Part shown: in pieces, positions 44 through 48,365 of the stretch | Position numbering within the stretch: the first letter of the stretch is position 1 | How the letters are laid out: each line of letters opens with the position of its first letter | Assembly (NCBI GenBank): GCA_030652255.1 | Contig: JAUSAZ010000112.1 | Span: 69,907 to 133,906 of the forward strand | Source: Myxococcales bacterium | Lineage (GTDB): Bacteria; Myxococcota_A; Polyangia; Polyangiales; Ga0077539 | DNA: 64,000 bases | Reading direction: 5' to 3' | Notes under the pieces: generated by a model | Seen by the model: only the letters and a program-made list of their open reading frames with translations | What the model was told of the DNA's origin: nothing | The model's database searches: none | Made by a program: the position numbers and the translations under genes

Positions 44-1759
44 TCAGAACAGCGAGTACCGCTGCGCCAGCGCCACCACCGCCGCGGGCTCGCAGCGCAG
101 CAGCACCCCGTCCGCCCGCACCTCGTAGGTCTCCGGGTCGACCTCGATGCACGGCAGCGCGTCGTTGAGCCGCATGTCCCGCTTGCCGAGACCACGGCAG
201 CCCTTCACCGCCGAGAGGGATTTGCGCAGCCCGAGGCGCGCCGTCGTCCCCTCGCGCAGCGCCCGTTGCGACACGAAGGCCAGGCTCGTCGCCCCCACCG
301 CCCCGCCCATCGCCCCGAACATCGGGCGCATGTACGACGGCTGCGGCGTCGGAATCGACGCCCCGGGGTCGCCCATCTGCCCCCACGCCACGAAGCCGCC
401 CTTCAGCACCAGCTCCGGGCGCACGCCGAAGTACGCCGGCTTCCACAGCACCAGGTCGGCCAGCTTGCCCACCTCCACCGAGCCCACCTCGTGGGCGAAG
501 CCGTGCGCGATCGCCGGGTTGATCGTGTACTTCGCCACGTAGCGCCGCACCCGCGCGTTGTCGTTGTCGCCCGTCTCTCCGGACAGTCGCCCGCGCTGCT
601 CGCGCATCTTGTGGGCCGTCTGCCAGGTGCGGGTGATCACCTCGCCCACCCGCCCCATGGCCTGCGAGTCGCTCGCGATCATGCTGATGGCGCCGAGGTC
701 GTGGAGGATGTCCTCCGCGGCGATGGTCTCCCCCCGGATGCGGCTCTCGGCGAAGGCCACGTCCTCGGGAATGCGCCGGTCGAGGTGGTGACACACCATC
801 AGCATGTCGAGGTGCTCGTCGAGGGTGTTCACCGTGAAGGGCCGCGTCGGGTTGGTCGAGCTCGGCAGCACGTTGGCCTCGCCGCACACCCGCAGGATGT
901 CCGGCGCGTGCCCGCCGCCCGCCCCCTCGGAGTGGTACGTGTGGATGGTGCGCCCGCCGATGGCCGCCAGCGAGTCGTCGACGTAGCCCGACTCGTTGAG
1001 GGTGTCGGTGTGGATGGTCACCTGCACGTCCTCGCCCTCCGCGAAGGCGAGGCAGCAGTCGATGGCCGACGGGGTCGTGCCCCAGTCCTCGTGCAGCTTG
1101 AGCCCGATGGCCCCCGCCCGCACCTGGTCGTCGAGGCCCTCCGGGCGCGAGGTATTACCCTTGCCCGTAAGCCCGATGTTGAGGGGGATGACGTCCGTGG
1201 CCTGGAGCATCAGCCCGAGCTGGTGCGCGCCCGGGGTGCAGGTCGTGGCGTTGGTGCCCGTGACGGGCCCGGTGCCGCCGCCGACGAAGGTGGTCACCCC
1301 GCTCGCGAGGGCCTCGTCGGCCTGCTGCGGACAGATGAAATGGATGTGCGCGTCGACCCCGCCCGCGGTCACGATGCGCCCCTCCGCGGCGAGCGCCTCG
1401 GTGGTCACGCCCACCACCATGCCCGGGGTCACGCCGGCCATCACCGCGGGGTTGCCCGCCTTGCCGATGCCCACGATGCGCCCGCGCTTCACGCCGATGT
1501 CGGCCTTGTAGATGCCCGTCCAGTCGACGATGAGCGCGTTGGTGATCACCAGGTCGAGCGCGTCGTCGTCGCGCACCCCCGCGGCCTGGCCCATGCGGTC
1601 GCGCAGCACCTTGCCGCCGCCGAACTTGCACTCGTCGCCGTAGACCGTCGCGTCGCGCTCCACCTCCACGACGAGCCCGGTGTCGCCGAGGCGCACCCGG
1701 TCGCCCGTCGTCGGGCCGAACATCGCCGCGTAGGCCGACCGCGGGACCCAGACGCTCAC
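44..1759 (-). CDS. ureC: urease alpha (catalytic) subunit
   Basis: 571-aa ORF. The N-terminus [29 protein letters not shown] and the internal [13 protein letters not shown] and MVCHHLD motifs are textbook UreC. The GTG start overlaps the upstream stop as GTGA (1756-1759). Confidence 0.95.
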
Positions 1760-4543: not shown

Positions 4544-6520
4544 TCAGCGCGGCGCGAAGGCGACCCCGCGGTACGTGGTGAGCGCCGGCGCCTGCGCGAG
4601 GGTGGTCACCGTGCCCGCGAGCGTCGAGGTGGTGACGTCGATGCGCTGGAGCCGCGCCCGGCTCTCGTTGGTGATCCCATACAGGACATAGTCCGCCCCG
4701 TTGGTGCGCCCCGTGAGCCCGCGGATGGGGTTGGTGAGGTTGGTGACGTTGCCGATGCGCGACCAGGTGCCGGTCGAGAGGCGCCAGTACTGCACGCCGC
4801 CGGTCGTGAGCAGCGACTGGTCGTCGCCGATGAACATCACGTCCGCCGCGCCGTTGCCGTCGCGGTCGAAGGCCGCGATGCCGTAGGGAGACCCCCCGGA
4901 GGTGGTGGGGAAGCCCGGCAGCAGGGCGATGAGGTTGCCCGTCGCGCGCGGCAGGGCCGTGGTGGCGAAGACCCCCGTGCCCGCGGGGTTGGCCCCGGTC
5001 GCCAGGAGCTGTTGCCCGAAGAGCGTCAGCGAGCGGAACACCTCGCGGTTGGTCACCCCCAGGCCGAACGATCCCGCGTAGCTGCTGTACAGCACGTCCC
5101 CGGAGCTCGTCGCCGCGTGGATGGACCAGAACTCGCTGCCGTCGGTGGACACCACCGCCCGGATGGCCGACCGGTTGCCCGACTCTCCGAGCTGGGTGCG
5201 CGTGTCGACCACGCCCGCGGCGTTGACCCGCGCGATCACCCGCTCGGCCTGGACGGTGTTCACCGCGAGGGTTCCCGGCGGGAGGTTGTACCCGCCGAGG
5301 GTCACCCACGCCCCGTTGGCGGAGCGCGAGAGCACCCCCTCGGTGCTCGACGTGCCCGACAGGGTGAGCGCCAGGCTGGCCCCCGAGACCGCCGTCGGCA
5401 GCGGGATGGGCGCCCCCACCGGCGCCCCGGTGCTGCCGTTGAAGGCCTCGATGTACACCGGCACCGCGGCGTTGGTGAGCGCCGCCGAGCCGTCGCCGAC
5501 GCGCAGCACCCAGATCCGGTCGTCGCCCGTCACCGGGCCCGTGTCGGGCGCGCCGGTGTCCCTCGGCACATCGACGCCCGCGTCGACCATGGGCAGCGGG
5601 CAGGTCACCCCGGAGATGTCCGTCGTGCCCCACACGCTCGCCTGCGCCGTCACGTCGAAGCGCCACATCGGGGTCGCGTTGATCGTGAAGCGGCACCCGC
5701 TGCGCAGCCCCACCGCGGTGCGCACCTCGATCGGGATGCGCAGCCGCAGCAGGGCGTCGGCCGGGAGCGCCGCCGTCGCGATGGGCGCCTGGAGGAACCC
5801 GACACCCCCCGCGCCGAAGTCCCCGGTGATGGTGCCCGTCAGCGTGATGAGCTCGTGCTCGTAGCCGAGCAGCCCCGTCACGAGGTCGCCCGCGCCGCTC
5901 ACGTCCTGCAACAGCGGCCCCACCGCCACGCCCGTCTCCGCGCGCACCAGCCCGCTGATCTCCGCGGCCCAGTGGGTCGCCGGGGTGGGCGACGATACCC
6001 GCCCGACGGTGAAGCTCACCCGGTCGCCCCGCGAGAGCTGCGGCGAGAGGGTCGCCGGGTCGACCGCGACGAAGAGCGCGGGCCCCGTGCGCTCGGCCTG
6101 CACGAAGAAGCCCGCCGGGTCGGTGGCGGAGACCGTGCCGTCGGTGCGCAGCGTGGCGGGCACCGTGTACGTCACCACCGCGCCCTCGACGCGCAGCGCC
6201 GCCGGGCCGATGGGCGTCGCGCGCACCGCGGCGATCTGCTGCGACGTCGAGCTCATCGGCGCGTCCATCGCAACCGGCGCGTCGATGAGCGCAGGCCGGT
6301 CGACCCCGACCGGCGCGTCCATCCCGACGGGGACATCCGTCCCGACGGGCACGTCCGTCCCGACGGGCACGTCCGTCCCGATGGGCACGTCGGTCCCGAC
6401 GGGGGTGTCGCTGCCGGCGCCAGCGTCGACCGGGCCGCTGGGGATGTTTCCTCGCGCCGAACACGCCACCACAAAGGACATCGCCACCGCGACCGACCGA
6501 GCACTGCCTTGCATGGTCAC
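4544..6520 (-). CDS. secreted lipoprotein with DVPxGT hexapeptide repeats and a C-terminal FG-GAP/VCBS-like region
   Basis: 658 aa with a signal peptide plus lipobox (SFVVAC). About 6 DVP(V/I)GT repeats follow it. [11 protein letters not shown]-type motif lies near the C-terminus. The competing overlapping frames are R/G/P-rich low complexity. Confidence 0.75.
6302..6409. repeat. tandem 18-bp repeat (~6 copies; core gtcccgacgggcacgtcc), in-frame coding repeat
   Basis: Read directly: 6338-6355 and 6356-6373 are identical, and the flanking copies are degenerate. The repeat encodes the DVPVGT units on the minus strand. Confidence 0.85.
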
Positions 6521-7669: not shown

Positions 7670-8656
7670 CTACCAGCGCGAGGTGTGGTCCTCGACCACG
7701 CCGTGGCCGCTGACGCGCACGGTCTTTCCGTCTGCGCGGAAGCTGCCCTCGAAGCGACCGAAGGGCTGGATGAAGTCGTGCTTCAACAGCCCGAGGTTCT
7801 TGCGGTCCTGCCGGGCGCCTTCGGGGGTGAAGGTGAGCGTGAGGTCGAGCTCGGCGACGCGGATGGTCCACTGCCCCTGGTCGGCCGGGCGGCCGATGGT
7901 GAACACGGCGCTCCCCAGCGGGATGAGCGCATCGCCCAGCCATAGGGCGTTCTCGAGCTCGTCATTGAAGTAGGCCACCAGGTTGAGTCCGAAGGGACGG
8001 CCGTCGTCGGTGGTGCCCTGGAGGCAGGCCCAGTTCCAGCGGGTGTCGCGCGGGGGATAGCCGAGGGTGAAGTCCACCGCGGCGCCGTGCGGGAGCGAGC
8101 GCTCGAAGCGACGGGCGTCGATGCGCACGGTCGCCTCCGCGGCGAGGCATAACCGCTTGAAGGTGTGGTTGAAGGGACGGTGCAGGGCCGGCGCCAGGGT
8201 GGTCATGCCGCCGTCCAGCGAGGGGACGCGCAGGTCGACGGAGATGCGCCGGCCGTCGTAGCGGAAGCGCAGGCCGTCGCCCTCCGGGTCGATGCGCCAC
8301 TGCCGGTCGCCGAAGCCGAAGGACCACGCGCCCCGCAGCGACGGTCGGAAGCCCTCCGCGAAGCCGAAGGGGATCTCCAGCGACTCCTCCACGCGCACCT
8401 TCCTCGCGCGGTCGTACACGTACACGAAGGCCGTGCCGAGGTACCCCGCGTCGGCCACGGCATAACCCACCATGAAGTCCTCATGGTAGGCGCCCGCGTA
8501 GAGCCATGCCTTGCGCTGGAGGCGCCGGGGCCACGCGGCCCCGTGGTCCCAGCGCGCGGTGGACACGTCGCCGACGGCGCCGCGGTAGCGCCCGAAGGGG
8601 TGCAGCCGACCGGAGGCGTCGACCAGCGAAGCGGGCGCGGGGGGCAGCGTGCTCAT
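7670..8656 (-). CDS. DUF2804-like protein
   Basis: 328 aa from the ATG at 8656 (MSTLPPAPASLVD...). The family call is from memory of DUF2804-type sequences. The upstream part of the 691-aa track ORF is R/P-rich shadow sequence. Confidence 0.6.
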   Translation of the reverse strand: MSTLPPAPASLVDASGRLHPFGRYRGAVGDVSTARWDHGAAWPRRLQRKAWLYAGAYHEDFMVGYAVADAGYLGTAFVYVYDRARKVRVEESLEIPFGFAEGFRPSLRGAWSFGFGDRQWRIDPEGDGLRFRYDGRRISVDLRVPSLDGGMTTLAPALHRPFNHTFKRLCLAAEATVRIDARRFERSLPHGAAVDFTLGYPPRDTRWNWACLQGTTDDGRPFGLNLVAYFNDELENALWLGDALIPLGSAVFTIGRPADQGQWTIRVAELDLTLTFTPEGARQDRKNLGLLKHDFIQPFGRFEGSFRADGKTVRVSGHGVVEDHTSRW

Positions 8657-12648: not shown

Positions 12649-13058
12649 CCCGCGGGCGCCGTCGCGGGCGCACCAGCGGGGGGATTCACGCTCGCGCCCG
12701 CGGCCTGGTCGTAGGGCAGCAGGGTGCGCTGCAGGATCGCGCGGGTCTCCTCGTCGAGCGCCGCGGGCCGCTGCTCGACGCTCTCGCGCGCCAGCGAGAG
12801 CCAGTGCCGCGCCTCGTCGCGCTGCCCGAGCCGCTCGGCGGTCATCCCCCGCACGTAGCGGTAGCGCACCTGCTCGATCGCATCGAGGTGACCGAAGTCC
12901 GACTCGAGGTCTTCGAGGTTGGTGAGCGCCGACTCGTACCGCGCCGCCCGGTAGTGGGCGTCCGCGCGATCGAGCTGGTCGCGGTAGTTCTGGCAGGCCG
13001 CCAGCGATGCCAGCAGGCCCGTCACGATCAAGGCACGTCCCGTCCGCACGGCGCGCAC
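12606..13058 (-). CDS. small lipoprotein with a TPR-like helical region
   Basis: The lipobox is in RALIVTGLLASLAAC. Candidate starts are GTG 13049, GTG 13058 and ATG 13127. GC3 is high. The 3' end overlaps the convergent U32 gene by 43 nt. Confidence 0.55.
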   Translation of the reverse strand: MRAVRTGRALIVTGLLASLAACQNYRDQLDRADAHYRAARYESALTNLEDLESDFGHLDAIEQVRYRYVRGMTAERLGQRDEARHWLSLARESVEQRPAALDEETRAILQRTLLPYDQAAGASVNPPAGAPATAPAGQSARTRSEPRTTP

Positions 13059-13212
13059 CCTATCACGGTCCCCGGCGAGCACGGGCACCGTGCCGACTGG
13101 CCAACGGTCCTCCCACCGGCGCGACATGGATGTCAGAGCCATCGCCCGCGGACCTCCCACCCGCCCCTTGGATTTCCGTCGTATCCCCGACGGAAGGCGC
13201 GTCGCCACCCCA

Positions 13213-13228
13213 TGGCACGCTCACTGCA
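13213..13228 (+). promoter_or_regulatory. sigma-54 promoter candidate (TGGCACG-N4-CTGCA)
   Basis: The sequence tggcacgctcactgca has GG and GC spaced exactly as in the consensus TGGCACG-N4-TTGCW, with 7/7 and 4/5 matches. It is intergenic if the minus-strand lipoprotein starts at or before 13127. Confidence 0.5.
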
Positions 13229-13242
13229 CAAGGCTCTGGCAC

Positions 13243-13400
13243 TTCGTTCCTTAGGTCAGCTTCTTCGTTGGCTTCCTTCGGTCTGCGCTTCCTTCTTCGG
13301 TCTTTTCTTCGACTGCCCTTCGCTTCGTCTCCGCTTCAACGTCGGCTCCCTCTTCCTTCTTCCGCTCCCCGACGGATCCCCGACTCACCCCCATCGACTT
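13243..13400 (+). repeat. strand-asymmetric polypyrimidine tract with quasi-repeats ending in TTCG(G)
   Basis: Read directly: cttcttcg, cttccttcgg, cttccttcttcgg, cttttcttcg, cccttcgcttcg, ctccctcttccttcttccgctcccc. GC content is locally lower. Confidence 0.7.
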
Positions 13401-13403
13401 CTT

Positions 13404-13447
13404 GAGCCCGGGGGCGCCCCCAAAGCGCCTCCGGGCTTCTTGTTGTT
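13404..13447 (+). terminator. Rho-independent terminator
   Basis: The stem gcccgggggcgc (13406-13417) pairs with gcgcctccgggc (13425-13436), giving 12 bp with one G-U pair. The loop is 7 nt (ccccaaa). The tail ttcttgttgtt is U-rich. Confidence 0.55.
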
Positions 13448-13558
13448 CCCCCCCACTGCCAATCCCCCGGGCGATGGAACCATCTTCCTCCTCGCGCGTC
13501 CCAAGGGCGGCCACCCTCGCGGTGTCCCCACAGTCCCACCGCCGGAGGATTCCACCCC

Positions 13559-14119
13559 ATGCGCCCCTTCTCTCCCCTCCTCGCCCTCGCCCTCGCCCTG
13601 CTCCCTCCCGCGGCCGCCGCCCAGGACGCGCGCTGCGTCCCGGGCTCGCCCTTCTATGAGCGCGGCGACTACCGCTGTTTCCCCCGGCACCCGCAGCCCA
13701 CCCGCGCCCGCGCCTCGGTGCGCGCCTCCGTCGAGGGCGGCCGCTACCTCTCCGGCGGCGGCCTCGACGCCGCCACCCGCGAGCGCATCGAAGACCACTT
13801 CGACGGCCTCGACGGCACCTTCGCCGAGGCCCTCCCCTCGCTCGTCGACGGCCGCGGCGGGCTGCACACCCCCGACGTGCGCCTGAGCGTCGTGCTGCTC
13901 CCCAGCGGCGACGTCGGCCGCGTGCGGGTGCTCTCCCGCCTCAACGACCCCTTCGACCGGCGCATCGCCCAGGCCCTCGTGGCGTCGGTGTCCGAGCACG
14001 CCGGCCTCTCCGTCGACGGCAGCGAGGTCGAGGTCATCGTGCGCCTCCACCCGCAGCTGCACTTTACCCGATGGCGTAATCACCCCACCCCGTCGCCCTG
14101 CTGCTACGAAGACGACTGA
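13559..14119 (+). CDS. secreted hypothetical protein
   Basis: 186 aa with signal peptide MRPFSPLLALALALLPPAAAAQD. A GGAGGA SD sits 9 nt upstream. GC3 is high. Confidence 0.65.
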   Translation: MRPFSPLLALALALLPPAAAAQDARCVPGSPFYERGDYRCFPRHPQPTRARASVRASVEGGRYLSGGGLDAATRERIEDHFDGLDGTFAEALPSLVDGRGGLHTPDVRLSVVLLPSGDVGRVRVLSRLNDPFDRRIAQALVASVSEHAGLSVDGSEVEVIVRLHPQLHFTRWRNHPTPSPCCYEDD

Positions 14120-14143
14120 GCGCCGCGGCGGGTTCGTGCCACA

Positions 14144-14878
14144 ATGGCCCGCGTGGAGCCCCCGCTGGTCGACCTCCTCTGCCGGCGCGCGCACTCCGTC
14201 ATCGACGTCGCCGCGCGCGTCCGCCTCTTCCGCGGCATCCTCGCGGTCACCGCCCGCGACGACCTCCGCGCCACCCTCGACCGCCTCGCCGAGCGCGCCG
14301 GGCTGCGCGACACCCACGCCCAGGTCGCGCTGCTCACCGCCGAGATCGCCCTCTGCTGGGAGCCCGACCTCCAGCGCGCCGTGCACGGCGACCGCCTCGA
14401 CGTGCCCGCGTCGGCCCTCGACCCCGACGACGAGCGCCTCGTGCCCGACTACGGCCGCGGGCGCGTGCTCACCCTGGGCGAGCGCAAGTCCCTCGCCCGC
14501 AGGCCCGACCGGCGGCTCATCGACCGCGTGCTGCGCGACCCCCACCCCGACGTCATCGAGCTGCTGCTCATGAACCCGCGGCTCACCGAGCCCGACGTGG
14601 TGCGCCTCTGCGCGCGCAGGCCCAACGCGCCGGAGATCCTGCTGCGGGTGTTCCGCTCGCCGCGCTGGGCCATCCGCCCGAAGGTGCGCACCGCGCTCGC
14701 GCTCAACCCCAGCACCCCGCCGGCCATCGCCGAGGCCGTGGTGCCGCTGCTCGCGCCCGAAGACCTCCACGCCCTCGCCCAGGACGACCACGCCGCCGGC
14801 GTCGTCCGCCGTCGCTGCATCGAGGTGCTCTCCCGCTTCGCGCCGCTCCACGACGACCCCGAGCCCGCGGTGCACTGA
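14144..14878 (+). CDS. HEAT/LRV-like repeat protein (hypothetical)
   Basis: 244 aa with repeats of the type LMNPRLTEPDVVRL and ALNPSTPPAIAEAVVPLL. GC3 is high. Confidence 0.6.
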   Translation: MARVEPPLVDLLCRRAHSVIDVAARVRLFRGILAVTARDDLRATLDRLAERAGLRDTHAQVALLTAEIALCWEPDLQRAVHGDRLDVPASALDPDDERLVPDYGRGRVLTLGERKSLARRPDRRLIDRVLRDPHPDVIELLLMNPRLTEPDVVRLCARRPNAPEILLRVFRSPRWAIRPKVRTALALNPSTPPAIAEAVVPLLAPEDLHALAQDDHAAGVVRRRCIEVLSRFAPLHDDPEPAVH

Positions 14879-14888
14879 CGGCCGCACA

Positions 14889-14921
14889 CATCGCGGAGGG
14901 GAATCACACCCCATCGCGGAG
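14889..14921 (+). promoter_or_regulatory. direct repeat CATCGCGGAG x2 (23-bp spacing) upstream of the activator gene
   Basis: Read directly at 14889-14898 and 14912-14921, 50-80 bp upstream of the start at 14970/14976. Confidence 0.2.
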
Positions 14922-14969
14922 TGCAGCCGCTGGCGGGTTCGTAGTATCCTCGGCGCATATGGGGCTTAG

Positions 14970-16430
<1,461 letters not shown>

Positions 16431-16466
16431 GCCGCGGACCCGACGTCCGGGTGGCGCGACCTGTCT

Positions 16467-16482
16467 ATGGCGGCGCCGCCAT
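16467..16482. promoter_or_regulatory. perfect 16-bp palindrome ATGGCGGCGCCGCCAT, UAS-like
   Basis: Read directly. It is centred ~100 bp upstream of the TSS predicted from the sigma-54 promoter at 16548-16563. Confidence 0.35.
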
Positions 16483-16547
16483 GGCCCGCGCGCCGTCAAA
16501 GCATCGTGCGCGGCATCGTCCGAGCGTCGGACACTGTTGCTGCCGTC

Positions 16548-16563
16548 TGGCACCGCATTCGCA
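16548..16563 (+). promoter_or_regulatory. sigma-54 promoter candidate (TGGCAC-N5-TCGCA)
   Basis: The sequence tggcaccgcattcgca has correct GG/GC spacing. It lies 30 nt upstream of the ATG at 16593 and directly downstream of the NtrC-type activator gene. Confidence 0.55.
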
Positions 16564-16592
16564 GTGAGAGGCGGAAACAGAAAGGCCATCCG

Positions 16593-17252
16593 ATGTCACC
16601 CACCCAGCGCGCCAGAGTTGTTCCTTATCCTTCCGATGCCCTAGCCCCTGGCGGCGATGTTTCGTCGACGGACGTCTCCCAGCGCGTCAGCCTCCCGACG
16701 AAGCCCTACCTCCGGCGCCTCAGCGGGGTTCATCGCTCGCGGTCCGGGCTGGTGCTGGGCCCGCCGATCGCGCCCGTCGAACCGGCGCGCGTCGCTCCGG
16801 CGCCCGCGGCGCCCCAGCGGCCTGGGCGCAACACCCCCATCCCGCGCTCGTCGCTCGACCCCTGGGAGGCCGCGCCCGCCGCCATCTCGGAAGAGCAGCT
16901 CGACGCCCTGACCTCGGCCCTGCACCTGACGCTGTCGCTCCTGGTCGAGCGCCGCCCCAGCGACCCGGGCCTCGTCGAGGCGAAGCGCGCCGTCGCGACC
17001 TTCCACGTGCGCGGCGTCGTCCGTGAGGCCCGCGAGCACGAGGCCCGCGAGCGCTGGCTGCCCGCCTCTCGGGCGTGGATGCGCGCCGCGGTCACCGCCG
17101 GCGACGACCCGTGGCTCTTCGCGCACGCCGCCCGCACGCTGCTGCTGACCAACGCGTCGTCGCAGGACGCCCGCGAGCTCGTCGGGCGCGCCCTCGACCT
17201 CGACCCGAACAACCCCCTCGCGCGTCAGGTTCTCGATCGCGTCATCGGCTGA
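16593..17252 (+). CDS. hypothetical protein (Pro-rich N-terminus, TPR-like C-terminus)
   Basis: 219 aa from the ATG at 16593 (MSPTQRARVV...), preceded by AAAGG. GC3 is high from ~16700 but lower over the first ~25 codons, so the start is uncertain. Confidence 0.55.
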   Translation: MSPTQRARVVPYPSDALAPGGDVSSTDVSQRVSLPTKPYLRRLSGVHRSRSGLVLGPPIAPVEPARVAPAPAAPQRPGRNTPIPRSSLDPWEAAPAAISEEQLDALTSALHLTLSLLVERRPSDPGLVEAKRAVATFHVRGVVREAREHEARERWLPASRAWMRAAVTAGDDPWLFAHAARTLLLTNASSQDARELVGRALDLDPNNPLARQVLDRVIG

Positions 17253-17271
17253 AGATACCGGCGGCGTCGGC

Positions 17272-29262: not shown

Positions 29263-29342
29263 TCAAAAATCCTACGGATTTGTGAGCGCCGCGCAGAACT
29301 CCCGGCGCGCGGGAGAGCGCTGGAATGAGGTCGGAGGTGGTG

Positions 29343-29375
29343 GAGGGAGCGGAGGAGAGCGGAGGAGAGCGGAGG
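29343..29375. repeat. tandem 10-bp repeat ggaggagagc (2 full copies plus partial flanks), intergenic
   Basis: Read directly at 29351-29360 and 29361-29370. On the transcribed (minus) strand it forms a CT-rich tract. Confidence 0.7.
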
Positions 29376-29389
29376 CGACCCCAGCGGGT

Positions 29390-31498
29390 CTACTGGTCGG
29401 CGGGCTGGAGGTTGAACGGGTAGTTCACCGTCACCACGCCGCCGCCCTCGGGGGCGGGGAACTGCCAGCGGCGCACGGCGTTGGCGATGCACTCGCCGAC
29501 GCTGGGCACGGGGATGGAGCTGTCGGCCACGTTGGAGCCGATGACCGTGCCGGTGCCGCCGATGACGAAGCGCACGACCACGCGGCCGGCGATGTTGGGG
29601 CTCGTGGCGAGGCCCTGCTCGTAGCAGTGGTTCACCTGGCCGAGGTTGCGGAGCACCACGCGGCGGATCGCCTCGGGCGAGAGCAGACCCGACACCGTCG
29701 GAGGCGCCGCGCGCACGGTCGGACCCGTGGTGCCGCGGTTGCGCAGGCCGCGGCCCGCGCCGGAGCCGTAGCCCTGGACCGAGCCCGTCCCCGAGCCGTG
29801 GCCCATGGTGCCGATGTTGCCCATGCCGATGGTGCCCTCGCCGGTGCCGCCGCCACCCCAGCCGGTGCCCGCGCCGCCGAGGCCGCCGTAGCCGAAGGCG
29901 TCGCCCACGGCGTCGCCGGTCATGTTGCCGTTGGCGTTCTGGCTGTCGACGCCCGACTCGGTCATCGCGCCGAAGGGCGACACGATGCCCGAGGCGCCGC
30001 CCGCCATGCCGCCGCCCGCGGCGCCGAGGGCCGCGAAGATGCCGCGGTTCTGCACCTGGTTGATGGCGGCCTGGCGCGTGAGGTGCGGGGGCTCGCCGTT
30101 GTTCTTGATGGCGTAGCGGGCGTTGCGGGTGGGCGTGTCGCGCCGACCCATCTTGCCCTCGTCGCCGCGGTGGCGCGTGCCGGTGCCGCCCTCCTGCTGG
30201 TCGTTGGCCTGCTGCACCGGCGGCGTCTCGGGCTGGCGCTCCTGCTGGCGCTGGATGAAGGCCGCGAGCTCGCGCAGGCGGTCGTCCTCGTTGCCCGACG
30301 ACAGGAACCCGGAGTCGTCGCTGATGGCGAAGTGCATCGTGAGCACCGCCGCCGCCACGAACATGAACCCGCCCGCGACGGAGCCGATGAGCGCGTTGTC
30401 GCGCTTGATGTGGCCCGCGATGACCCGGCCCGGCGCGACCACCTTCGCCACGAAGGTGAGCCCGCCCACCTCCTGGCGATAGCGGCCGTCGGGCTGGATG
30501 TTGACCTCGAAGGCCCCCGGCACCGCGGTCGATGGACGCGCGTGACCCTGGCTCTTGAGGTCGTCGAGCGAGCGCTTGACGCCCTGGAGCTCGACCTCGC
30601 CCGTGGCGCCCGGCAGGAACACGAAGCGCGTGCCGGAGTTGTTGACCACCACCGGCAGCTCGGTGGCGCCGCCGAGGATCTCAGACCCGACCGTGAACTG
30701 CGACACGTCGGAGAGGAGGTCTTCGTTCTTGTGGCTGAGCTTGATGCCCACGCCGGAGCCGACCAGCGCCGTGAGGGCGCCGACGCCGCCGATCATGAGC
30801 CCGCTGTTGTCGTTGAGGTGCTGCGGGTCGGCCTTCGCGGCGCCCACGGCCATCATCAGCGACCCGACGCCCCAGAGCGCGCCGGTGACCTTGCTGGCGG
30901 GGGTGAGCGCCGGGTCCTTGCCGGTGAGCGTGAAGCTCTGGTTGTCGCGCAGGTGGGCGACGTGGAGGATCGAGCTCTTCCACATGACCGAGATCTCGAC
31001 GGCGTGCGAGCCGACCTCCTCGACCTCGTGGGGGTTGATCTCACCCCGCTTGATGAGCTGGTAGATCTCCTCGCCCTCGCCGGCCAGGGACGACGTGGTG
31101 ATGGGGGCGTTGCCGCCCTCCGCCACCACGAGCGCCGAGGCCGCCGCGCCGAGCGGCGCCGCCAGCGACGGCGACACGAAGGTGCCTGCCTCGCGGGCCT
31201 CGCCGATCTCCACGGTGATCTGCGCGCCGCCCAGGGTGATCACGTCGCCCGTGCGCAGCGACGCCTTGTTGACCGCCTGACCGTTCACCTGCGTCCCCGA
31301 CCCGAGGTCGATGATCTGGACGTCATCGGGCTTCACCTCGATGACGGCGTGCATCCGGGCGACGCCCTCGTCGTCGATGCGCAGATGGGACTTCTGGTCT
31401 CGACCGACCTTGATCACGTCCTGGGCGATGGTCTCGGTGCGAACCGAGGCTCCCTGGGCGATCCTGAACGTGATTGGAACCACCATCTTCTGCGCCAT
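29390..31498 (-). CDS. FHA-domain, membrane-spanning, Pro/Gly-rich protein with an AgmX/PglI-type (TonB-C-like) C-terminal domain; GltG/AgmX-like
   Basis: 702 aa from the ATG at 31498. The N-terminal FHA is IKVGRDQKSHLRIDDEGVARMHAVIEV...IIDLGSGTQVNGQAV. There are hydrophobic TM segments. The periplasmic linker is G/P-rich. The C-terminus is LSPEAIRRVVLRNLGQVNHCYEQGL...GRVVVRFVIGGTGTV...ECIANAVRRWQFPAPEGGGVVTVNYPF. Confidence 0.85.
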   Translation of the reverse strand: MAQKMVVPITFRIAQGASVRTETIAQDVIKVGRDQKSHLRIDDEGVARMHAVIEVKPDDVQIIDLGSGTQVNGQAVNKASLRTGDVITLGGAQITVEIGEAREAGTFVSPSLAAPLGAAASALVVAEGGNAPITTSSLAGEGEEIYQLIKRGEINPHEVEEVGSHAVEISVMWKSSILHVAHLRDNQSFTLTGKDPALTPASKVTGALWGVGSLMMAVGAAKADPQHLNDNSGLMIGGVGALTALVGSGVGIKLSHKNEDLLSDVSQFTVGSEILGGATELPVVVNNSGTRFVFLPGATGEVELQGVKRSLDDLKSQGHARPSTAVPGAFEVNIQPDGRYRQEVGGLTFVAKVVAPGRVIAGHIKRDNALIGSVAGGFMFVAAAVLTMHFAISDDSGFLSSGNEDDRLRELAAFIQRQQERQPETPPVQQANDQQEGGTGTRHRGDEGKMGRRDTPTRNARYAIKNNGEPPHLTRQAAINQVQNRGIFAALGAAGGGMAGGASGIVSPFGAMTESGVDSQNANGNMTGDAVGDAFGYGGLGGAGTGWGGGGTGEGTIGMGNIGTMGHGSGTGSVQGYGSGAGRGLRNRGTTGPTVRAAPPTVSGLLSPEAIRRVVLRNLGQVNHCYEQGLATSPNIAGRVVVRFVIGGTGTVIGSNVADSSIPVPSVGECIANAVRRWQFPAPEGGGVVTVNYPFNLQPADQ

Positions 31499-46776: not shown

Positions 46777-48365
46777 ACGTTGTCGCGGTAGCCCGTCGGC
46801 GTCTGCGGGGTGTTGGCGCGCGGGGTCGTGCGCGGCGGGCGGCGGACGCGCGGCGCGGCGGGCACCGGGGCGGCGGGCTCGACCACGGGCGCGGGATCGA
46901 CCGGGGCGACGGGCATCGGCGGCACCTCGGTCACCCGAGGGCGCAGGCGGGCGACGTGCGTGAGCTGCGCGCCTGACAGGGTCACCTGGTGGTCTTCGAA
47001 GCCCGCGTGGCGGAACACCAGCGTGTGGGCCGTGTCGGGGTTGCCCCGCGCGCCCGTCCAGGCACTGCGCAGGGGCGTGCGGCCGAGGGAGACGCCGCCC
47101 TCGAGCACCTCGGCGCCGGCGGGATCGCTGTCGAGCGAGACCTGCACCGTCGGCGCGACCGCCGCGGGGGCGGACGGTGAGGGCGCGGCGACGAGGCGGA
47201 TGGCGACGCCGAGGCCCACCGCGAGCACGAAGAGCCCGACGCCCAGGAGCAGCGGAGACCGGCGGGCCTCCGGGGCAGGGGGCGGCGCCGTGATGTTGGG
47301 CGCGGCGGCGGTGAGCGACTCGCGGGGCGTCGGCGCGCGAGGCAGCGGCGGCGGGAGCGTGGAGGTGAGCGGGGCGACGGGGCTCTCGCCCGAGGTGGGC
47401 ACCCGGCCGCCGAGGCTGTTGATGAACTCCCCGGACATCGACCCGAGGGGGCGGCCCACGGAGGCGCCGGCGTGCTTGATGGCGGCGATGAGCTCGTCCA
47501 TCGACGCGTAGCGCTCCTCGGGGCGCTTCGCGAGGCAGCGGTAGACGATCTCCTCGACGGCCGCGGGCACCTGCACCAGGGGGTTGGTCTCGACGAGCGT
47601 GGGCACCGGGTCGCTCACGTGGGCCATGAGCAGGTTGACCGAGCTCGATCGCTCGAAGGGCACCTTGCCCGTGAGCAGCTCGAAGAGGATCACCCCGAGG
47701 GAGTACACGTCCGTCGCCGGGGAGACCCGCTCGCCGCGGATCTGCTCGGGGGCCATGTACTTGGGCGATCCCATGAACAGCCCGGTCTGCGTGAGGGCCT
47801 CCTCCGCGGTCTCGTCGGTGCGCTTGAGGAGCCCGAAATCCAGCACCTTCACGAAGTCCGGGTCGTCGTCGTGGCGCACCAGGTACAGGTTGGCCGGCTT
47901 CAGGTCGCGGTGGATGACCCCGTGCCCGTGGGCCTCCCGGAGCGCGCGGCACGCCTGCACCAGGATGTGCAGCGCGCGGCCGACCTCGAGCGGCGCGTCG
48001 TCGCGCAGGAGCCGGTGGAGGGTGCGGCCCTCCAGGTACTCCATCGCCATGAAGTACACGTTGTCGCTCGACTGACCGTAGTCGTAGAGCGTCACCGTGT
48101 TGGGGTGCGTGAGCTTCGAGACGATCGACGCCTCGAGGAAGAAGCGCTTGTGAAACTCCGGGTCGCTCTCCCCGTTGTAGTTGGGCTGGAGCACCTTGAG
48201 CGCGACGATGCGTCCGAGCGGCGCCTGCTCGGCCCGGTACACCTTGCCCATGCCGCCGCGGGCGATGATGGACAGCACCTTGAAGCGGTCGTTGATGACG
48301 CGCCCGATGAGCGGATCTCCCGGCGCGGTCGACGTCCCTGTGGTGGTGCTGACGGGCTCAGCCAT
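46770..48365 (-). CDS. Ser/Thr protein kinase with a TM segment and a C-terminal PEGA domain
   Basis: Hanks kinase motifs: GGMGKVYRA, VALK, HRDLKPANL, DFGLL, APE. The TM is LLLGVGLFVLAVGLGVAI. The PEGA-like C-terminus is VQVSLDSDPAGAEVLEGGVSLGRTP. Confidence 0.9.
   Translation of the reverse strand: MAEPVSTTTGTSTAPGDPLIGRVINDRFKVLSIIARGGMGKVYRAEQAPLGRIVALKVLQPNYNGESDPEFHKRFFLEASIVSKLTHPNTVTLYDYGQSSDNVYFMAMEYLEGRTLHRLLRDDAPLEVGRALHILVQACRALREAHGHGVIHRDLKPANLYLVRHDDDPDFVKVLDFGLLKRTDETAEEALTQTGLFMGSPKYMAPEQIRGERVSPATDVYSLGVILFELLTGKVPFERSSSVNLLMAHVSDPVPTLVETNPLVQVPAAVEEIVYRCLAKRPEERYASMDELIAAIKHAGASVGRPLGSMSGEFINSLGGRVPTSGESPVAPLTSTLPPPLPRAPTPRESLTAAAPNITAPPPAPEARRSPLLLGVGLFVLAVGLGVAIRLVAAPSPSAPAAVAPTVQVSLDSDPAGAEVLEGGVSLGRTPLRSAWTGARGNPDTAHTLVFRHAGFEDHQVTLSGAQLTHVARLRPRVTEVPPMPVAPVDPAPVVEPAAPVPAAPRVRRPPRTTPRANTPQTPTGYRDNVY

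What the first reader, a model, noticed from the sequence alone, without database searches (positions are those of the whole stretch)
13213..13447. Sigma-54 promoter, ~165-nt CU-rich tract and canonical terminator: a candidate sigma-54-dependent sRNA or attenuator
**Seen in the sequence.**
- TGGCACG-N4-CTGCA (13213-13228) has exact -24/-12 spacing and lies in a divergent intergenic region.
- From ~13243 to 13400 the plus strand is an almost pure pyrimidine tract. It has quasi-repeats ending in TTCG(G) and many CCUC/CUCC/UUCC motifs.
- At 13406-13436 a 12-bp GC stem (one G-U pair) with a 7-nt loop is followed by ttcttgttgtt. This is a textbook Rho-independent terminator, and it is the clearest one I found in this GC-rich window.
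- The next start codon (13559, good GGAGGA SD) lies 112 nt past the terminator.
- ORFs crossing the tract use A- or T-ending codons, unlike real genes here.

**Inference.** There are two readings.
1. It is a ~200-nt sigma-54-dependent sRNA whose CU-rich, anti-SD-like stretches could pair with purine-rich ribosome-binding sites.
2. It is a terminating leader that gates read-through into the 13559-16430 genes. Those genes include an NtrC-type activator, so a feedback loop is possible.

From memory, the M. xanthus Pxr sRNA is also next to an NtrC-like activator gene. I claim no sequence homology to it.
Basis: partly seen in the sequence, partly recalled or inferred. Interest (0 to 1): 0.7.

Follow-up and report, generated by a model that had tools for sequence, protein, structure and literature searches.

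The report
Conserved sigma-54 CUUC-repeat small RNA gene
This is most likely a stand-alone gene for a non-coding RNA of about 207 nt, with its own sigma-54 promoter, an unstructured body carrying 14-20 CUUC motifs and a strong terminator; it is conserved in one clade of uncultured myxobacteria and is a new family of a familiar regulatory type, with no known partner.

Summary
TGGCACGCTCACTGCA (13213-13228) is the only good sigma-54 -24/-12 match in 64 kb. The tract at 13243-13400 is 76% pyrimidine, which is less than "almost pure", but it is the most pyrimidine-rich and T-rich stretch in the window. The 14-bp hairpin at 13404-13438 is by far the best terminator.

Twelve more full-length copies were found in genome and metagenome contigs, all at the same locus. 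The promoter, an upstream block (13088-13141), the CUUC-repeat body and the terminator are conserved. The spacers between them are not. There is no conserved ORF, no Rfam match and no conserved structure apart from the terminator. Every copy has 14-20 CUUC, about three times the number expected, and invariant bases concentrate in these motifs.

A separate ECF-type promoter (13476-13506) lies between the terminator and the 13559 gene. It is also conserved in distant relatives that lack the RNA. The NtrC-type activator belongs to a two-gene cassette that is missing from many loci carrying the RNA. The stand-alone sRNA reading is therefore supported, and the attenuator/feedback reading is disfavoured.

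How the RNA acts is inferred only: protein titration or pairing with purine-rich sites. Expression is untested.

The parts
13088..13141 (.). Conserved upstream blocks, candidate enhancer (UAS) for the sigma-54 activator. They include the perfect palindrome GACATGGATGTC (13123-13134), centred about 108 nt upstream of the inferred start. They could instead, or also, regulate the divergent lipoprotein gene.
   Evidence: Mean pairwise identity is 0.87 against 0.48 for the spacer 13142-13210. The palindrome is present in all sRNA-carrying loci tested and in none of the other loci then held. Alignment A5 shows 1-nt indels that are inconsistent with coding. Assignment as a UAS is inference.
13213..13228 (+). 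Sigma-54 (-24/-12) promoter TGGCACG-N4-CTGCA. GG is at 13214-13215 and GC at 13226-13227. The inferred transcription start is about 13238-13239.
   Evidence: It is a unique match in the window. TGGCA(C/T)G-N4-CTGCA is conserved in all 13 copies. The start site is inferred from the standard -12 spacing and was not measured.
13239..13365 (+). Conserved part of the RNA body: single-stranded, poor in G and A, with CUUC(G) repeats. Conserved blocks include CUUCGUUCCUUAG at the 5' end, CUUCCUUCUUCG, UUUCUUCGACUG, GCUUCAACG and CCYUCUUYCUUCKUCCG.
   Evidence: - CTTC counts run from 14-20 per copy against 5-6.5 expected (0 of 500 shuffles in each of 13 copies).
- Invariant columns are enriched inside CTTC: 33 of 61 against 20 of 105, odds ratio 5.0, p = 5e-6.
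- RNAalifold finds no consensus structure.
- The body MFE z-score is +0.2 to +2.4 in all copies.
- No ORF is conserved.
- GC3 is 0.49-0.66.
13366..13395 (+). Variable C-rich linker between the repeat body and the terminator.
   Evidence: Mean pairwise identity is 0.35, and length varies.
13404..13447 (+). Intrinsic terminator: a 14-bp G+C-rich hairpin (13404-13438, 7-nt loop) and the tail CUUGUUGUU.
   Evidence: - Found by the terminator scan, at -29.7 kcal/mol.
- It is the best terminator-like site in 60 kb.
- It is 100% paired in 13 copies. Eleven of 13 pairs are invariant, and one pair varies A-U/G-U/G-C.
13476..13506 (+). Context, not part of the RNA: an ECF-sigma-type promoter GGAAC-N16-CGTCCCAAGG for the 13559 operon.
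   Evidence: It is conserved in sRNA-carrying loci and directly upstream of the homologous gene in distant loci that lack the RNA (L008, L010, L012-L015, L019, L020, L030). Promoter function is inferred from the consensus.

Best explanation
This is an independent gene for a non-coding RNA of about 207 nt (about 200-245 nt in relatives).

**Proposed course of transcription.**
- An enhancer-binding activator acts on RNA polymerase holding sigma-54 at the -24/-12 promoter (13213-13228). The activator probably binds the conserved blocks at 13088-13141.
- Transcription starts near 13238-13239.
- It runs through an unstructured body, poor in G and A, that displays 14-20 single-stranded CUUC(G) motifs.
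- It stops at the 14-bp hairpin and U-rich tail (13404-13447).
- The operon downstream is driven separately from its own ECF-type promoter.

**Proposed action.** The RNA most likely acts in trans as a multivalent platform. I rank two sub-mechanisms:
- (a) titration of a protein that binds single-stranded pyrimidine-rich RNA, the logic of CrcZ and CsrB (about 0.35);
- (b) pairing of its CUUC/CCUUC/CUUCC runs with GAAG/GGAG-rich, Shine-Dalgarno-like mRNA segments (about 0.3).

**Shown.** The sequence features, their statistical excess, their conservation as a unit, the absence of coding potential and of conserved structure, and the separate downstream promoter motif.

**Inferred.** That the region is transcribed, where the ends lie, that the RNA acts in trans, and which partner it has.
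For: - The promoter match is unique in the window.
- The terminator is the best in 60 kb.
- Thirteen full-length copies exist, from six genome MAGs (the window's among them) and from metagenome contigs. All lie at the same locus. The promoter, 5' end, repeat body and hairpin are conserved.
- Mean pairwise identity by segment is 0.87 for the upstream block, 0.80 for the promoter, 0.62 for the body (indels counted as mismatches) and 0.80 for the terminator. The spacers score 0.48, 0.35 and 0.18.
- CUUC is about three times over-represented in every copy.
- Invariant positions concentrate in the motifs.
- Motif number changes through CTTCG-unit indels that are not multiples of three.
- No ORF is conserved on either strand, and GC3 is non-coding.
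- The body is never more structured than its shuffles.
- The ECF-type promoter downstream of the terminator is conserved with or without the RNA.
- The RNA is intact in L021/L025, where the first 120 or so codons of the downstream gene are deleted.
Against: - There are no expression data of any kind.
- The family is confined to a narrow clade: the neighbouring protein is at least 79% identical in every locus that carries the RNA. Covariation power is therefore low. Only one hairpin pair varies on both sides, and 87 of 500 shuffles do as well.
- No activator can be assigned. The two local sigma-54 promoters share no upstream motif.
- No target or partner was found.
- The U-tract is interrupted (UUCUUGUUGUU), so some read-through is possible.
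- A long unstructured RNA would be unstable unless bound by something.
Confidence: 0.65

Rival explanations
1. Terminating leader or attenuator. The sigma-54 transcript is the 5' leader of the 13559-16430 operon. Regulated read-through of the hairpin would give a second, sigma-54-dependent input, for instance through a protein bound to the CUUC repeats, as TRAP binds its triplet repeats. This might close a feedback loop through the NtrC-type activator.
For: - The element has the same orientation as the operon and lies 112 nt upstream of it.
- The U-tract is imperfect.
- An array of repeated motifs in front of a terminator resembles protein-dependent attenuators (own knowledge of TRAP and the trp leader).
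- The activator gene lies downstream in the window, L003, L025 and L029.
Against: - A separate ECF-type promoter sits between the terminator and the gene. It is conserved in relatives that never had the leader.
- No conserved antiterminator pairing was found, and the -29.7 kcal/mol hairpin persists in the full-length MFE fold.
- The activator and p220 form an indel cassette. It is absent from L004-L006 and L022-L024, and L007 also has no activator gene downstream. The RNA and its upstream blocks are unchanged in all of these loci.
Confidence: 0.12
2. A transcript with no function of its own. The conserved units would be the sigma-54 promoter and the upstream blocks, for example through regulatory coupling with the divergent lipoprotein gene or interference with, or insulation of, the ECF promoter. 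The terminator would merely stop the polymerase, and the tract would be an expanded CTTCG microsatellite.
For: - The upstream blocks lie between two divergent genes and could serve either one.
- The body changes by unit indels, as a microsatellite does.
- The linker at 13366-13395 is free to vary.
Against: - Invariant bases are concentrated in the CUUC motifs (odds ratio 5.0).
- Twelve of 16 motif positions are kept as CTTC in at least 10 of 13 copies.
- The strand asymmetry and lack of structure are kept in all copies.
- The body is better conserved than the flanking spacers.
Confidence: 0.1
3. A DNA-level element. The polypyrimidine/polypurine tract would form H-DNA, or it would be an array of CTTCG binding sites for a DNA-binding protein that acts as a roadblock.
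For: The CTTCG units are repeated at spacings of 5-21 bp, and the purine/pyrimidine strand asymmetry is strong.
Against: - The tract is framed exactly by a promoter and a terminator on the pyrimidine strand.
- The spacings (21, 13, 19, 12, 11, 5) show no helical phasing.
- At 76% pyrimidine with interspersed G, the tract is a poor mirror repeat for a triplex.
Confidence: 0.05
4. A gene for a small protein, on either strand.
For: In the window, a TTG-initiated 45-codon ORF ends at the TGA at 13403-13405, and an 87-codon ORF lies on the minus strand.
Against: - Frames, starts and stops are not conserved among the 13 copies. Indels of 1, 2, 5 and 7 nt occur. The plus strand has no ATG start.
- GC3 is 0.49-0.66 against 0.94-0.99 in genes.
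Confidence: 0.02

Closest known systems
Pxr sRNA of Myxococcus xanthus and relatives
   Same: Both are in Myxococcota and are intergenic stand-alone sRNA genes. [quoted passage not shown]
   Different: - Pxr is 108 nt with three stem-loops, whereas this RNA is about 207 nt with no conserved structure beyond the terminator.
- No Rfam family matches.
- Pxr lies downstream of its activator gene. This RNA lies upstream of an operon, and the activator gene is dispensable for the locus.
CrcZ/CrcY of Pseudomonas (protein-sponge sRNAs dependent on CbrB and sigma-54)
   Same: These sRNAs depend on an NtrC-family activator and are encoded next to the activator gene. They carry several copies of a short single-stranded motif and work by sequestering an RNA-binding protein (Hfq/Crc) (PMC5113210; PMC4063720).
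   Different: - Their motif is A-rich (AAnAAnAA), whereas this one is CUUC(G).
- There is no sequence relationship, and the phylum differs.
- No binding protein is known here. The sponge mechanism is inference only.
CsrB/RsmX/Y/Z family
   Same: These sRNAs have many copies of one short motif. Copy number varies between relatives, and the function depends on valency (own knowledge).
   Different: Their GGA motifs are presented in hairpin loops, their promoters depend on GacA/UvrY rather than sigma-54, and their partner is CsrA/RsmA. Here the motifs sit in an unstructured pyrimidine-rich chain.
C/U-rich anti-Shine-Dalgarno sRNAs (RsaE/RoxS, LhrC, CcsR/CuckoO, RepG)
   Same: Their pyrimidine-rich motifs can pair with purine-rich ribosome-binding sites (own knowledge). 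CUUCC and CCUUC can pair with GGAGG with one G-U wobble.
   Different: - Those RNAs are 70-120 nt, are structured, and carry 2-4 motifs in loops.
- This RNA has 14-20 motifs with no scaffold.
- The exact CCUCC sequence is absent from the window copy.
- No target was found.
Other sigma-54-dependent sRNAs (Qrr1-5 with LuxO, GlmY with GlrR)
   Same: The promoter type is the same, and so is the logic of a two-component response regulator switching on a small RNA (PMC3730234 and PMC4152352, listed; own knowledge).
   Different: There is no sequence or structural similarity. Those RNAs are structured and their partners are known.

Membership tests
Sigma-54-dependent stand-alone sRNA gene (functional class) | A -24/-12 promoter with GG-N10-GC spacing, conserved among relatives | tested here: met
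   The match is unique in 64 kb. TGGCA(C/T)G-N4-CTGCA is present in all 13 copies.
Sigma-54-dependent stand-alone sRNA gene (functional class) | An upstream activator (enhancer-binding protein) site and a cognate activator | tested here: inconclusive
   - Conserved blocks with a palindrome lie at about -98 to -151.
- They could belong to the divergent gene instead.
- They share no motif with the 16548 promoter.
- The adjacent activator gene is absent from many loci.
Sigma-54-dependent stand-alone sRNA gene (functional class) | Its own terminator, no coding potential, and a downstream gene that is transcribed independently | tested here: met
   The terminator is shown. No ORF is conserved. An ECF-type promoter lies downstream and is also conserved in loci without the RNA.
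Sigma-54-dependent stand-alone sRNA gene (functional class) | A discrete transcript is detected, and its level depends on rpoN | not testable with these tools
   No transcriptome data are available here.
Pxr sRNA family | Sequence and structure homology: about 108 nt, with conserved stem-loops SL1-SL3 | tested here: not met
   - No Rfam match was found, even at E <= 10, apart from noise driven by the terminator. I did not verify that Rfam 15 holds a Pxr model.
- No conserved stem-loops are present.
- The length is about 207 nt.
- Pxr features are taken from PMC5568312.
Pxr sRNA family | Position between nla19 and the NADH dehydrogenase gene | tested here: not met
   The locus here runs U32 peptidase, TPR lipoprotein, the RNA, p186, p244.
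Protein-sponge sRNAs (CsrB/CrcZ type) | Multiple copies of one short motif, over-represented and under selection, in accessible RNA | tested here: met
   Each copy has 14-20 CUUC, about three times the expected number. Invariant sites are enriched in the motifs. The body is predicted to be unstructured.
Protein-sponge sRNAs (CsrB/CrcZ type) | A cognate RNA-binding protein that recognises the same motif in mRNAs | not testable with these tools
   No candidate protein was identified. Only 64 kb of the genome is available.
Transcription attenuator / terminating leader | A conserved alternative (antiterminator) structure that overlaps the terminator | tested here: not met
   RNAalifold finds only the terminator. 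The full-length MFE fold keeps the hairpin.
Transcription attenuator / terminating leader | The downstream genes depend on the upstream promoter | tested here: not met
   A conserved ECF-type promoter lies between the terminator and the gene, including in relatives that lack the element. This rests on the motif only and was not shown by experiment.

The most novel reading that the evidence does not exclude
The RNA is a sigma-54-induced, multivalent sponge for a protein that binds single-stranded pyrimidine-rich RNA. Candidates include Rho (whose primary sites bind YC dinucleotides), ribosomal protein S1, a cold-shock-domain protein, or a KH/RRM protein. It would be the first CU-type counterpart of the GGA (CsrB) and A-rich (CrcZ) sponges. 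It could give a cell a way to retune termination or translation globally from one two-component signal.
Probability: 0.25. Interest if true: 0.8.

Novelty: new variant of a known kind. Interest (0 to 1): 0.5.

Why it matters
Sigma-54-controlled small RNAs are switches in several well-studied circuits: Qrr in quorum sensing, CrcZ in catabolite repression, GlmY in envelope synthesis and Pxr in myxobacterial development.

This element adds a new, sequence-unrelated family in uncultured Myxococcota, with an unusual build. It has no scaffold, only a chain of about 165 nt carrying 14-20 selected CUUC motifs.

If the motifs titrate a pyrimidine-binding protein, this would be a new class of sponge RNA. 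If they pair with purine-rich ribosome-binding sites, it would be an unusually multivalent anti-SD regulator.

In either case, the clean promoter-to-terminator definition and the 13 aligned copies make it directly testable.

Tried and rejected
1. **Rfam.** The gathering-threshold scan of the whole window and the E <= 10 scan of 12900-13800 gave nothing for the element. The only hits were terminator-driven noise such as CC0196 (E = 0.17).
2. **Coding potential.** ORFs on both strands were compared in 13 copies, and none is conserved.
3. **Consensus structure of the body.** There is none. A weak 5' helix is broken in 2 of 6 sequences.
4. **Homologues elsewhere.** An nhmmer profile search of all 32 loci and the window found no second copy. 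It found nothing in loci whose p186 protein is at most 70% identical.
5. **Other genomic contexts.** A metagenome pattern scan (promoter plus 5' end, 20 specified bases) gave 8 hits, all in the same context. The pattern is strict, so diverged copies elsewhere would have been missed.
6. **Target search by RNAduplex.** Scanning the window gave long spurious duplexes (mean -37 kcal/mol). Only the RNA's own antisense strand stood out. The top hits, at 47161 and 29331, have no convincing mRNA context.
7. **Exact complementary 10-mers.** No recurrent orthologous site in an mRNA sense strand was found in ten loci.
8. **Shared upstream motif.** The sRNA promoter and the 16548 promoter share none.
9. 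**GAAG-rich region at 8261.** This is ordinary coding sequence.
10. **First mis-registered hairpin string.** One search was off by one column. One search is the correct count.

Full report

Yes, with one overstatement.
- TGGCACGCTCACTGCA (13213-13228) is the only match to TGGCAC-N5-YTGCW on either strand of the 64-kb window; 0.07 matches are expected. One mismatch to the TTGCW form adds only one further site, at 16548.
- The stretch 13243-13400 is 76% pyrimidine (C 64, T 56, G 27, A 11). It is not "almost pure". It is, however, the most pyrimidine-rich and the most T-rich 158-nt stretch of the window.
- The real repeat unit is CUUC. It occurs 16 times against 5.4 +/- 2.0 in dinucleotide-preserving shuffles (0 of 2000 reach 16). 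CUUCG occurs 7 times against 1.3.
- The hairpin at 13404-13438 has 14 pairs, 11 of them G-C, and a 7-nt loop. Its energy is -29.7 kcal/mol.
- The 13 other terminator-like sites in 60 kb have 5-7 pairs and occur at chance frequency.
- GC3 is 0.94-0.99 in neighbouring genes and 0.49-0.66 in all six frames of the tract.
- The window comes from an uncultured Myxococcota MAG (GCA_030692645.1) and is 72.7% G+C.

**2. Relatives**

The 186-aa protein encoded at 13559 (p186) has no Pfam or NCBIfam family. Its homologues form a narrow group, all from uncultured Myxococcota.

A genome scan with its alignment returned 18 loci. The promoter, tract and terminator are present in the five loci whose p186 is 82-93% identical. 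They are absent upstream of the gene in all loci at 57-69% identity.

Two further searches added copies:
- A metagenome scan with a pattern spanning the promoter and the RNA's 5' end gave 8 hits. All lie at the same locus; one contig (L028) ends inside the element, and L021 and L025 carry the same copy.
- A look-up of a 79%-identical p186 homologue gave the most divergent copy, L029, with promoter TGGCATG-N4-CTGCA.

Look-ups at 68-70% identity found no copy. An nhmmer profile found no second copy in the window or in any other locus.

The family therefore has 13 full-length aligned copies (A6). It is confined to one clade and to one genomic position: U32 peptidase, TPR lipoprotein (minus strand), the RNA, p186, p244.

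**3. Anatomy and conservation**

Mean pairwise identity by segment:

| Segment | Identity |
|---|---|
| Upstream blocks 13088-13141 | 0.87 |
| Spacer to the promoter | 0.48 |
| Promoter | 0.80 |
| Repeat body 13241-13365 (indels counted as mismatches) | 0.62 |
| Linker 13366-13395 | 0.35 |
| Terminator | 0.80 |
| 13448-13472 | 0.18 |
| p186 gene | 0.77 |

Selection therefore acts on discrete blocks that together make a transcription unit.

- **Upstream blocks.** They contain the perfect palindrome GACATGGATGTC (13123-13134), about 108 nt upstream of the inferred start. It was present in every sRNA-carrying locus tested and in none of the other loci then held. One-nucleotide indels in the alignment argue that the blocks are non-coding. 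They are plausible activator sites, but they could also serve the divergent lipoprotein gene.
- **Hairpin.** It is fully paired in all 13 copies. Eleven of 13 pairs never vary, and one pair varies A-U/G-U/G-C. The hairpin is thus kept mainly by sequence conservation, and covariation support is weak.
- **Body structure.** RNAalifold finds no conserved structure. In all 13 copies the body's folding energy is weaker than the mean of its own shuffles, with z from +0.2 to +2.4.
- **Coding potential.** No ORF is conserved in frame, start or stop on either strand. Indels of 1, 2, 5 and 7 nt occur.
- **Motif counts.** Every copy has 14-20 CUUC against 5-6.5 expected (0 of 500 shuffles each).
- **Selection on the motifs.** Invariant alignment columns are concentrated inside CUUC: 33 of 61 positions against 20 of 105 outside, odds ratio 5.0, p = 5e-6. 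Twelve of the 16 motif positions in the window remain CUUC in at least 10 of 13 copies.
- **Motif turnover.** Copy number changes through the gain and loss of CTTCG units, for example a 21-nt insertion made of such units in the L004/L005 group.

**4. Stand-alone RNA or leader?**

Three findings favour a stand-alone gene.

1. **The operon has its own promoter.** GGAAC-N16-CGTCCCAAGG (13476-13506), a typical ECF-sigma-type promoter, lies between the terminator and the start codon. It is conserved in the sRNA-carrying loci. The same box sits directly upstream of the p186 homologue in distant loci that have no RNA element at all: L008, L010, L012-L015, L019, L020 and L030. The operon's own promoter is thus older and more widespread, and the sigma-54 unit is an addition upstream of it.
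2. **No antiterminator.** No conserved alternative pairing competes with the hairpin.
3. **The activator is dispensable for the locus.**
   - The NtrC-type activator (14970-16430: receiver, sigma-54 AAA+ and HTH_8 domains) and the next gene (p220, 16593-17252) form a two-gene indel cassette.
   - In the window, L003 and L025 the cassette lies between p244 and a minus-strand PTH2 gene. L029 also has the activator gene after p244, but that contig ends inside it.
   - In L004-L006 and L022-L024, PTH2 follows p244 directly.
   - L007 has other genes there.
   - The RNA and its upstream blocks are unchanged in all of these loci.
   - The cassette carries its own sigma-54-like promoter, TGGCACCGCATTCGCA, 30 nt before the p220 start. 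That promoter shares no upstream motif with the sRNA promoter.
   - A feedback loop through the local activator is therefore not a conserved property of the element.

In addition, L021/L025 have lost the first 120 or so codons of p186 but keep the RNA intact.

**5. Mechanism**

What is shown is a conserved, non-coding, promoter-to-terminator unit whose selected feature is a chain of single-stranded CUUC(G) motifs. How it acts is inference.

The following point to a function that depends on multivalent recognition of a short single-stranded motif:
- the high valency;
- the turnover of motif number while the motif itself is kept;
- the systematic lack of structure.

This is the logic of CrcZ, which depends on CbrB and sigma-54, carries A-rich motifs and sequesters Hfq/Crc (PMC5113210). 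It is also the logic of CsrB (own knowledge).

Candidate partners are proteins that bind pyrimidine-rich single strands: Rho, S1, cold-shock proteins, and KH or RRM proteins (own knowledge). None could be tested.

The alternative is pairing with GAAG/GGAG-rich sites. CUUCC and CCUUC can pair with GGAGG using one G-U wobble. However, exact CCUCC is absent from the window copy, and two local target searches found nothing convincing. With only 64 kb of the genome available, those searches had little power.

**6. Comparison with known systems**

The closest in biology is Pxr: a Myxococcota sRNA with a sigma-54 promoter, next to nla19 (PMC5568312). Pxr is 108 nt with three stem-loops and sits at a different locus. 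This RNA is not a member of that family.

The closest in proposed logic is CrcZ.

No Rfam family matches. I file it as a new variant of a known kind: a sigma-54-dependent sRNA with a scaffold-free CUUC-repeat body.

**7. Verdict**

- Reading 1 is supported by comparative evidence.
- Reading 2 and the feedback idea are disfavoured.
- Confidence that this is a stand-alone, trans-acting regulatory RNA is 0.65.
- Interest is 0.5. It is a clean, conserved and unusual sRNA family, but it occurs in uncultured organisms, has no expression data, and has no known partner.

Noticed in passing
window 13476-13506; also L008, L010, L012-L015, L019, L020, L030 just upstream of the p186 homologue: An ECF-sigma-type promoter box, G(G/A)AAC(C)-N16/17-CGTCC(C)AAGG, is conserved upstream of the p186 gene family across both close and distant relatives. 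It suggests that this secreted protein belongs to an ECF (envelope-stress-type) regulon.
   Followed up: partly
window 14879-17270 (activator 14970-16430; promoter-like site 16548-16563; p220 16593-17252): The NtrC-type activator and a 219-aa protein of unknown family form a two-gene indel cassette between p244 and PTH2. The cassette has its own sigma-54-like promoter, TGGCACCGCATTCGCA, 30 nt before the p220 start. Perfect palindromes lie upstream: ATGGCGGCGCCGCCAT at 16467 and GTCCGAGCGTCGGAC at 16518.
   Followed up: partly
L021 about 560-580 and L025 (minus strand) about 5420-5440: In these two metagenome contigs the first 120 or so codons of the p186 gene are deleted. The remainder starts at residue 121. 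The upstream RNA element, the ECF box and p244 are intact.
   Followed up: partly
window 13559-14119: p186 has a signal peptide and conserved cysteines. An AlphaFold model (pLDDT 83.5) shows only a weak resemblance of one part to TonB C-terminal domains (Foldseek E = 0.045, TM about 0.5 on the target). It has no Pfam or NCBIfam family.
   Followed up: partly
window 1312-1606 (+): This is the only Rfam hit in the window at gathering score: 5_ureB_sRNA, 64 bits. It lies antisense to a urease alpha-subunit gene (44-1759, minus strand; Urease_alpha plus Amidohydro_1). It most likely reflects conservation of the coding sequence and not an sRNA.
   Followed up: yes
window 29320-29385: This intergenic purine-rich tandem repeat on the plus strand reads GGAGGTGGTGGAGGGAGCGGAGGAGAGCGGAGGAGAGCGGAGG. 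On the minus strand, downstream of the gene that ends at 29390, it reads as a CU-rich stretch. It has the highest C/G ratio on that strand (3.67 in 78 nt). It may be a Rho-loading or other 3'-UTR feature.
   Followed up: no
L020 3560-3800: A tandem array of a unit of about 45 nt (GCGCGTA(C/T)ATCCCTTGGGGCGAACCCTGGGCGCGCCAC) lies upstream of the p186 homologue in a distant relative. It is unrelated to the CUUC element.
   Followed up: no
window 13174-13195: An 8-bp inverted repeat, TTCCGTCG-N6-CGACGGAA, lies between the upstream blocks and the -24 element. It is not conserved in the other copies. Several other copies instead have an A/T-richer box around T(T/G)GA(A/T)TTC at about -60, which could be a bending-protein site.
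   Followed up: no
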